Assembly (NCBI GenBank): GCA_951406725.2
Contig: OX597815.1
Span: 211,854,001-211,918,000 of the forward strand
From: Octopus vulgaris
Taxonomy: Eukaryota
Length of the DNA: 64,000 bases
Direction: 5' to 3'
Below, piece by piece: positions 41,413-42,222 of the stretch. Position 1 is the stretch's first letter; every line of letters starts with the position of its first letter. A program made the position numbers and the translations under genes. The notes under the pieces were generated by a model, which searched no databases, was not told where the DNA came from, and worked only from the letters and a program-made list of their open reading frames with translations.

Positions 41413-42222
41413 GGATCTTTTCGGTTTGAACGGCAGTTTTTTCTAGCTGTGTAATATGAAATTGTCACCCATAATTATGACCTTTGTATCGATCTATTGC
41501 ATTTCAATCTATTTTAGATTTAGGGTTAGTTAGGGTTAGGGGTGGGGTAGGGTATCTTTTTTCTTCACAAATGTAAATAAACCCAATCTGTTTCTTAAAC
41601 GAGGGACATATTCATACGGTACAGAATGTTGTTTACGTCACTACCCCAGCTTTCAGAGATAAAATTCAGAGATAAAATTATTACGAGCTCGCCAGGATTC
41701 GAACCTGGAATCTTCTGATCCGTAGTCAGACGCGTTATCCATTGCGCCACAAGCCCTACGCTAAATAATCATTCCTACTTATTCCTAATTTCTTTACTGC
41801 CTAACTCTTGTTGTAGACGAAGACACAGACACACATGCGAGCACTCACAGACACGGACACCCAAATACACACACACACACACACACACACACACACACAC
41901 ACACACACACACACACACACACACACACACACACACACACACACACACACACACACACACATACACACTCGACAAAGGCGTCCTGTTTTGCCAGAGCTCG
42001 CACACAGAATCTTCTGCTCCGTAATTAGACGCGTAATTGATTGGTTGAGATTGCCGAAATTGAAGAAAATATCTTACCAATATCTTACAAACTATAGAAT
42101 TTTCTCAATAAAGCCAAGAGAAAAAGATGTTTTATAAACACATTCTACCAGTATACGAAGTTTAAAATTTTTTAGTTACCTAGAAATTATGTTAAAAACT
42201 GCATTTCAAACCGAAAAGATCC
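41413..42222. mobile_element. GGATC-TIR MITE (reverse orientation) enclosing a ~400-bp tRNA-bearing cargo
   Basis: TIRs at both ends, TSD AAAATATC/AAAATATT; 41413-~41638 and ~42037-42222 are the two halves of the 35460 element. Confidence 0.85.
41684..41756 (-). tRNA. trnR-ACG: tRNA-Arg(ACG), A67G variant (U6-G67 wobble), inside MITE
   Basis: One substitution from consensus, boxes intact, T4 downstream. Confidence 0.88.

What the first reader, a model, noticed from the sequence alone, without database searches (positions are those of the whole stretch)
41413..42222. A MITE with both TIRs and TSD encloses an intact tRNA-Arg gene (possible tRNA-carrying Pack-type element)
Seen: the ~430-bp MITE found whole at 35460 and 54221 is split here. 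Its halves (41413-~41638, ~42037-42222) bracket ~400 bp holding a full tRNA-Arg(ACG) gene, its terminator, 5' flank, a (CA)n tract and a tRNA relic. The 810 bp has both TIRs and an 8-bp TSD (AAAATATC/AAAATATT). The cargo is homologous to 43720-44036 of the downstream repeat unit. Known: Pack-MULE/Pack-CACTA-type elements capture host fragments; GG termini with 8-bp TSD are compatible with Merlin-like elements (hAT and P also make 8-bp TSDs). Inference: either a mobilisable tRNA-carrying element, or a later template switch into a resident MITE. The break falls at the CCAATCA-TGACGT motif, where a related MITE fragment also joins the homologous segment near 44062, which fits the second route.
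Basis: partly seen in the sequence, partly recalled or inferred. Interest (0 to 1): 0.75.

Follow-up and report, generated by a model that had tools for sequence, protein, structure and literature searches.

The report
tRNA gene patched into a MITE
A small, very common jumping element sits in a cluster of arginine tRNA genes and holds, at its exact centre, a 390-base copy of a neighbouring unit with an intact tRNA gene; the arrangement occurs once in the genome and is most likely a one-off DNA-break repair of a kind already described in animals, not a family of tRNA-carrying transposons.

Summary
41413-42222 is a ~425-bp MITE (29-bp TIRs, 8-bp TSD, very common in this genome) split at its centre by 391 bp that hold an intact tRNA-Arg(ACG), its terminator, 5' flank, a (CA)n tract and a tRNA relic. 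A contig from a public run bridges the right junction, so misassembly is unlikely. The composite is single-copy: both junctions are unique in the 2.8-Gb genome, the cargo's unique parts occur only in this array, 0 of 80 fetched MITE loci carry it, and 0 of 13 dispersed tRNA-Arg genes lie inside the MITE. The parent sequence lies 1.5-9 kb away in the same orientation. The junctions share 3 and 6-9 bp of microhomology, and only 5 bp of the MITE are lost, from the loop of a 7-bp hairpin found in a rare family variant. This matches single-copy Pack-TIRs formed by gap filling (Tan et al. 2021). The tRNA cargo follows from the neighbourhood, a 29-gene tRNA array. Merlin membership fits the ends but no matching transposase was found. 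Verdict: new instance of a known kind; low interest.

The parts
41405..41412 (+). left copy of the likely 8-bp target-site duplication (7 of 8 match)
41413..41640 (+). left half of the MITE (228 bp), with left TIR 41413-41441 and a TTAGGG-like tract
41633..41639 (+). left arm of the 7-bp central inverted repeat of the parent MITE variant
41638..41640 (+). left junction, 3-bp microhomology shared by MITE and parent unit
41641..42031 (+). cargo, 391 bp: one tRNA-array unit in the same orientation as the array
41652..41679 (+). cargo-specific 13-bp tandem duplication; doubles the T4 run (41674-41677 and 41661-41664, minus strand), the predicted Pol III terminator
41684..41756 (-). tRNA-Arg(ACG) gene, 73 nt; one change from the array's modal gene (A67G, a U-G wobble in the acceptor stem)
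41757..41865 (-). 5' flank of the tRNA gene; found only in this array
41842..41968 (.). (CA)n tract
41985..42038 (-). degenerate tRNA-Arg relic (left edge approximate), cut at the right junction
42032..42038 (+). right junction, 6-7 bp microhomology in the composite (9 bp between the parent MITE variant and the extant parent units)
   Evidence: bridged by a contig in run X1
42032..42222 (+). right half of the MITE (191 bp), right TIR 42194-42222 with two substitutions at TIR positions 19-20
42223..42230 (+). right copy of the likely TSD
43717..44038 (+). nearest extant relative of the cargo's parent unit (8 substitutions in 262 bp outside the CA tract)
47912..48249 (+). second paralogue of the parent unit (10 of 262)
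51315..51668 (+). third paralogue of the parent unit (8 of 262)
35460..35890 (-). intact MITE copy
54221..54658 (-). intact MITE copy

Best explanation
A MITE sits at one site of the tRNA-Arg array with 391 bp of a neighbouring array unit in its centre, a single-copy arrangement that most likely arose when the resident MITE broke at its centre and the break was repaired by copying nearby DNA (gap filling with template switching). Shown: one insertion site, both halves complete but for 5 bp, a parent sequence in cis, microhomology at both junctions, no second copy. Inferred: the break fell in the 4-nt loop of a 7-bp inverted repeat; the right-half end invaded the ancestor of the 43.7/47.9/51.3-kb units at the 6-9 bp match, copied about 390 bp (slipping once to give the 13-bp duplication), and re-annealed to the left half at the 3-bp match. 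No transposase is needed for the capture. The tRNA is cargo because tRNA units are what lies nearby; it is predicted to be transcribable by Pol III and redundant.
For: Single copy: left junction 17-mer and right junction 19-mer with up to 1 mismatch give 2 hits each, the locus itself and one unrelated site; an exact 20-mer gives 1. Cargo 5' flank: 7 of 7 hits inside this window; relic plus junction: 4 of 4. No cargo in 80 fetched MITE loci, 77 distinct. 0 of 13 dispersed tRNA-Arg loci lie between MITE halves. One site: the two flanks align end to end with six array units. Parent variant: copies L144, L145, L149 carry both of the composite's central ends joined by 5 bp; that exact 27-mer occurs 7 times in the genome, so both halves fit one rare variant. 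Microhomology against random switch points: P(>=6)=0.002, P(>=7)=0.0006, P(>=3)=0.06. Direction: the array units sit in native context on both sides, the cargo does not. Tan et al. 2021 (PMC8277862, section 8) report the same signature for single-copy Pack-TIRs: 56.9% within 15 kb of the parent, microhomology in 67.6%, median gap 4.6% of the element, internal breakpoints. Right junction bridged by a 97-nt contig in run X1 (50 nt cargo side, 39 nt MITE side, 3 other letters, no gap).
Against: The order 'insertion first, capture later' is not shown by divergence: the halves are 5.3% from the family majority and from the nearest copy but have only 6 of 419 near-private changes, the family median, while the cargo is 3.1-3.8% from its relatives. 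No orthologous MITE without cargo was seen. The left microhomology alone is not beyond chance (P=0.06). No extant unit is the exact parent: the cargo keeps ancestral states (41691, 41849, 41854-41859) that all three units lost. The hairpin as cause is a guess: 7-bp arms are short, 5 of 48 copies have some such repeat somewhere, and the sister fragment at 44061 ends at the same central motif with no such hairpin. The cargo's left edge overlaps the last base of the 8-mer (43710-43717) that is homologous to the MITE's own target site, which plain gap filling does not explain. The left junction has no read test.
Confidence: 0.72

Rival explanations
1. Transposase-dependent abortive gap repair: the MITE excised, and repair from the sister chromatid switched template to the neighbouring unit before finishing, leaving the composite at the same site.
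For: Gives the same end structure. The halves are no more diverged in near-private changes than typical copies (6 of 419), so the family may have been active then. The family made other rearranged forms, such as head-to-head dimers. The cargo edge coincides with a homologue of the target site.
Against: Tan et al. expect larger losses and breakpoints nearer the ends for this route; here 5 bp (about 1%) are lost at the centre.
Confidence: 0.12
2. Two ordinary array rearrangements: a tandem duplication joining the unit's end back to the MITE's right half, then a deletion from the MITE centre to the start of the first unit.
For: The array evolves by such steps: 206-bp tandem units and a 3.5-3.9 kb higher-order repeat. 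The right junction has the longer microhomology.
Against: Two independent breakpoints must fall within 5 bp of each other in a 425-bp element.
Confidence: 0.08
3. A mobilised tRNA-carrying element: the composite formed elsewhere (or elsewhere in the array) and jumped here as a unit.
For: Both TIRs and a 7-of-8 TSD are present. The family can move about 800 bp: a 798-bp head-to-head dimer has a perfect 8-bp TSD (L144 = L163).
Against: No second copy by any test. The parent lies 1.5-9 kb away; Tan et al. found multicopy Pack-TIRs always distal.
Confidence: 0.06
4. Assembly artefact in a repetitive array.
For: The region is a tandem array with a long (CA)n tract; the left junction has no read test.
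Against: The right junction is bridged by a contig in run X1. The cargo differs from every extant unit by 8-10 substitutions, a 13-bp duplication and retained ancestral bases, which a mis-join would not create.
Confidence: 0.02

Closest known systems
Single-copy Pack-TIRs formed by transposition-independent gap filling (Tan et al. 2021, PMC8277862; read: abstract, passages, sections 8 and 14, term search of 12 supplementary files)
   Same: Non-TE DNA inside one TIR element; single copy; parent in cis under 15 kb; microhomology at the junctions; small loss at an internal position.
   Different: Cargo is a whole Pol III gene with terminator and flank; 'tRNA' has 0 occurrences in that paper's main text and text supplements. 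The host is a MITE with Merlin-like ends. The parent is a multicopy array unit, which their filters would have dropped.
Multicopy Pack-TIRs (Ssk-FB4, Pack-hAT-N8_XT; same paper, passages) and plant Pack-MULE / Pack-CACTA elements (search listings; otherwise recalled)
   Same: Host DNA between TIRs with a TSD.
   Different: Those were amplified by transposition; this composite has no second copy.
Merlin superfamily (features from PMC8101967, passages)
   Same: 5'-GG termini, 29-bp TIR within the 24-462 bp range, 8-bp TSD; Merlin transposase genes are plentiful in this genome.
   Different: No fetched Merlin is bounded by these TIRs (0 of 40); those with clear ends have other TIRs.
Dada DNA transposons that target tRNA and snRNA genes (PMC3706591, PMC8869645; search listing and start of abstract only)
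   Same: DNA transposon associated with multicopy tRNA genes.
   Different: Dada inserts into the gene; here the gene lies inside the element, and the MITE family is dispersed over many contigs.

Membership tests
Single-copy Pack-TIR (Tan et al. 2021) | Internal sequence of 100-5000 bp between the two ends of one TIR element | tested here: met
   391 bp between complete halves; both halves fit one rare variant
Single-copy Pack-TIR (Tan et al. 2021) | Parental copy at 90% identity or more, length ratio 80-120% | tested here: met
   96-97% outside the CA tract; ratio about 1.13 and 1.19 for two paralogues, 1.25 for the nearest because of CA-tract length (my arithmetic coordinates)
Single-copy Pack-TIR (Tan et al. 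2021) | Pipeline filters: unique best parent, and no TE within 100 bp of the parent | tested here: not met
   Three near-equal paralogues; a sister-MITE piece starts 23 bp past the parent's end. These are screening filters against segmental duplication, so the case works like a Pack-TIR but would not have entered their list
Single-copy Pack-TIR (Tan et al. 2021) | Single copy, parent in cis within 15 kb | tested here: met
Single-copy Pack-TIR (Tan et al. 2021) | Microhomology at a breakpoint; small loss at an internal position | tested here: met
   3 bp and 6-9 bp; 5 bp lost at position about 228 of 424
Single-copy Pack-TIR (Tan et al. 2021) | Orthologous element without cargo in an outgroup | tested here: inconclusive
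   No related genomes are held; contigs of four runs were too short to show it
Mobile Pack element (multicopy Pack-TIR, Pack-MULE type) | Composite copies at other loci with different TSDs | tested here: not met
Merlin superfamily | TIR of 24-462 bp with terminal 5'-GG | tested here: met
   29-bp TIR, GG at both ends; definition
Merlin superfamily | 8- or 9-bp TSD | tested here: met
   8-bp match with at most 1 mismatch in 21 of 29 and 15 of 24 other copies
Merlin superfamily | Autonomous partner with DDE_Tnp_IS1595 transposase and the same TIRs | tested here: inconclusive
   0 of 40 loci fetched, out of 150 scored and 476 candidates
hAT or P superfamily (also 8-bp TSD; recalled) | Autonomous partner with hAT or P transposase and the same TIRs | not tested
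   No search was made
Functional tRNA gene | Full cloverleaf, internal promoter region unchanged, T4 run downstream | tested here: met
   one change from the modal gene, in the acceptor stem
Functional tRNA gene | Transcribed and processed in vivo | not tested
   No RNA run was sought or laid

The most novel reading that the evidence does not exclude
The composite is a still-mobilisable 810-bp unit carrying a whole, self-promoting tRNA gene and has moved or can move in other individuals: a route by which an animal MITE disperses tRNA genes. The family has transposed an 800-bp dimer, and one haploid assembly cannot show rare polymorphic copies.
Probability: 0.05. Interest if true: 0.55.

Novelty: new member of a known kind. 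Interest (0 to 1): 0.22.

Why it matters
It is a clean, base-resolved example of gap-filling capture in an invertebrate, with a whole non-coding gene as cargo and a candidate break site (a hairpin loop in a rare MITE variant). It adds one case to a described class and changes tRNA dosage little (1 of 29 tRNA-Arg calls in the window). It would matter more only if the composite proved mobile. I found no paper on an animal MITE carrying a tRNA gene in the listings, but these word searches cover open-access text only.

Tried and rejected
Search for further composites by the whole 810 bp: only 40 of 3069 candidates were scored, so uniqueness rests on the junction patterns and on the cargo's unique parts, where all candidates were scored (7 of 7, 4 of 4). 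tRNA search: 40 of 70 candidates were scored, 13 of them outside this array; 30 were not seen. Merlin partner: none in 40 loci; MITE pieces near some Merlins (L053, L064, L093, L100, L108) lie on one side only. Left-versus-right distance correlation across 48 copies was negative, but half the copies were picked by likeness to each half, so I rejected it as a sampling artefact. Dating insertion against capture by divergence was inconclusive. Read laying: X3 has a contig over the MITE/right-flank joint with only 18 nt on the MITE side, too few to count as a bridge; X3 and X18 show no cover on the cargo side and X1 none on the right flank, and holes prove nothing; X16 covers the cargo side but its piece was not listed. 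X1 is the best holder and could be the source sample, though its 3 differences point to another haplotype, individual or species. A target-site preference matrix was not obtained, so whether this array 8-mer is a favoured target stays open. One search stopped on a script error and was redone. The 10 kb on either side of the window hold no MITE, tRNA or cargo match. The Octopus vulgaris repeat paper (PMC13282606, passages) lists Merlin and MITE counts but nothing on this element. PMC12562434 (abstract only) reports more small indels in the spacers of short inverted repeats in human cancers; this is context, not support. Look-ups near this place and by sequence in earlier scan notes gave nothing.

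Full report
Setting. The window lies on contig C2 of a 2.8-Gb genome in 227 contigs, probably an octopus (a guess from genome size and unchecked scan notes). From 33.7 to 53.1 kb it holds 29 tRNA-Arg calls, all on the minus strand, among many relics, 206-bp tandem units and a 3.5-3.9 kb higher-order repeat.

Observation. The element 41413-42222 has 29-bp TIRs that match at 27 positions and flanking 8-mers that match at 7 of 8. Its halves match two intact window copies at 85-92%. Between them lie 391 bp with a tRNA-Arg(ACG) gene that differs from the array's modal gene at one base, keeps its cloverleaf, and has a T4 run 6 nt downstream.

The family. A genome search with the 810 bp gave 3069 candidates, 40 scored. 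Most intact copies are 390-450 bp. An 8-bp duplication with at most one mismatch flanks 21 of 29 copies and 15 of 24 more. GG termini, TIR length and TSD length fit the Merlin definition in PMC8101967 (passages). Merlin transposase matches are plentiful (150 scored), but none of 40 fetched loci is bounded by these TIRs. The superfamily is therefore likely Merlin, not shown.

One insertion site. The left and right flanks, rejoined, align end to end with six array units. The cargo is thus not native between two separate insertions. The rejoined site lacks about 15 bp that the other units have between two short direct repeats, so the TSD is probable rather than certain.

Single copy. The left junction (17-mer, up to 1 mismatch) and the right junction (19-mer) each hit the locus itself and one unrelated place; an exact 20-mer hits once. 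The cargo's 5' flank hits 7 places, all in this window, and the relic with the junction 4. None of 80 fetched MITE loci (77 distinct) holds cargo. None of 13 dispersed tRNA-Arg loci lies between MITE halves; L128 and L129 have related MITE pieces on one side only. These tests would miss a composite with several changes at both junctions and a diverged cargo, and one assembly cannot show copies in other individuals.

The parent of the cargo. Three array units, 1.5, 5.7 and 9.1 kb past the element's right end and in the same orientation, differ from the cargo at 8, 10 and 8 of 262 bases outside the CA tract and from each other at 4-7. The cargo keeps bases at 41691, 41849 and 41854-41859 that all three lost and that more distant units share. 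It was therefore copied from their common ancestor before they multiplied. Those units continue into native array sequence on both sides, which sets the direction of copying.

The junctions. Copies L144, L145 and L149 carry the composite's left and right central ends joined by 5 bp. This exact centre occurs 7 times in the genome, so both halves fit one rare variant. In it the centre is a perfect 7-bp inverted repeat with a 4-nt loop, and the cargo replaces the loop. The left junction shares 3 bp with the parent unit. The right shares 6-7 bp in the composite and 9 bp between the variant and the extant units. Against random switch points, 6 bp or more has P=0.002 and 3 bp or more P=0.06. A 13-bp tandem duplication, absent from the three relatives, lies just inside the left junction.

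Not an assembly error. In run X1 a 97-nt contig covers 41982-42077 with 3 other letters and no gap, 50 nt on the cargo side and 39 on the MITE side. X1 is the best holder of the region and might be the source sample. The left junction has no read test.

Mechanism. Shown: one site, near-complete halves, a cis parent, microhomology, a single copy. Inferred: a break at the MITE centre, invasion of the neighbouring unit by the right-half end at the longer match, copying of about 390 bp, and re-annealing at the short match. The hairpin is a candidate cause only: the arms are short, and the sister fragment at 44061 ends at the same central motif without one. Divergence does not separate insertion from capture, so repair after excision (0.12) and a two-step array rearrangement (0.08) stay open beside gap filling in a resident element (0.72). 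One detail is unexplained: the cargo's left edge overlaps the last base of the 8-mer that is homologous to the MITE's own target site, and the 206-bp units keep the end of a sister MITE at that same 8-mer.

Comparison. Tan et al. 2021 (PMC8277862; abstract, passages, sections 8 and 14) describe 370 animal Pack-TIRs. Single-copy ones are mostly near their parent (56.9% within 15 kb), have microhomology (67.6%), lose a median 4.6% of the element and break internally. This case shows each of these features; the cargo-free orthologue could not be shown. Their screening filters (unique parent, no TE beside it) are not met, so it works like a single-copy Pack-TIR but would not have passed their pipeline. 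'tRNA' does not occur in that paper's text or in its 12 text supplements; figures were not visible to me. The listings showed no animal MITE with a tRNA cargo. An unchecked scan note reports a similar one-off patch in another transposon of this genome (e1-9583399).

Verdict. Real, single-copy and explained by a known process: a new member of a known kind. The tRNA cargo is a minor novelty that follows from the location. Interest 0.22. The bold reading, a mobile tRNA-carrying MITE, keeps about 5%.

Noticed in passing
window 45060-46938, 49278-50336, 52716-53151: Each 206-bp tandem tRNA-Arg unit keeps about 31 bp of a sister MITE's TIR directly before the array 8-mer homologous to the composite's target site: a second, independent insertion at the same array position, later cut down and amplified.
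   Followed up: partly
window 45419-45491 and 45625-45697: Two adjacent array units have anticodon TCG instead of ACG by a single change at position 34: an isoacceptor switch inside the array.
   Followed up: no
window 44030-44270, 48241-48486, 51660-51900: A sister-MITE left part, opposite in orientation to the composite, ends at the homologous central motif and was tripled with the higher-order repeat; it matches the element at 6291-6375.
   Followed up: partly
L030, L140, L141, L143, L144 (= L163): Head-to-head dimers of the MITE that lack the first 16-26 bp of the inner TIRs, 5 distinct loci among the 77 fetched; L144 is 798 bp with a perfect 8-bp TSD, so it moved as one unit. L161 is a 324-bp fold-back form with a perfect TSD.
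   Followed up: partly
L021 and L155: MITE copies with inserts of about 370-420 bp away from the centre; the inserts match 37-44 other fetched loci, so they are probably common repeats such as SINEs.
   Followed up: no
L100 324-3523 and L104 909-4710: Merlin transposase matches flanked by inverted repeats of about 700-765 bp at 96-99% identity, longer than the 24-462 bp quoted for Merlin TIRs.
   Followed up: no
L045-L050, L057: Seven Merlin matches, several with a 308-aa open frame, share up to 3.3 kb including flanking microsatellites and show no TIRs, as if carried inside a larger repeat.
   Followed up: no
window 43750-43822, 47945-48017, 51348-51420: The three relatives of the cargo carry C66T as well as A67G, giving three wobble pairs in the acceptor stem; the captured copy is the better-paired one.
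   Followed up: partly
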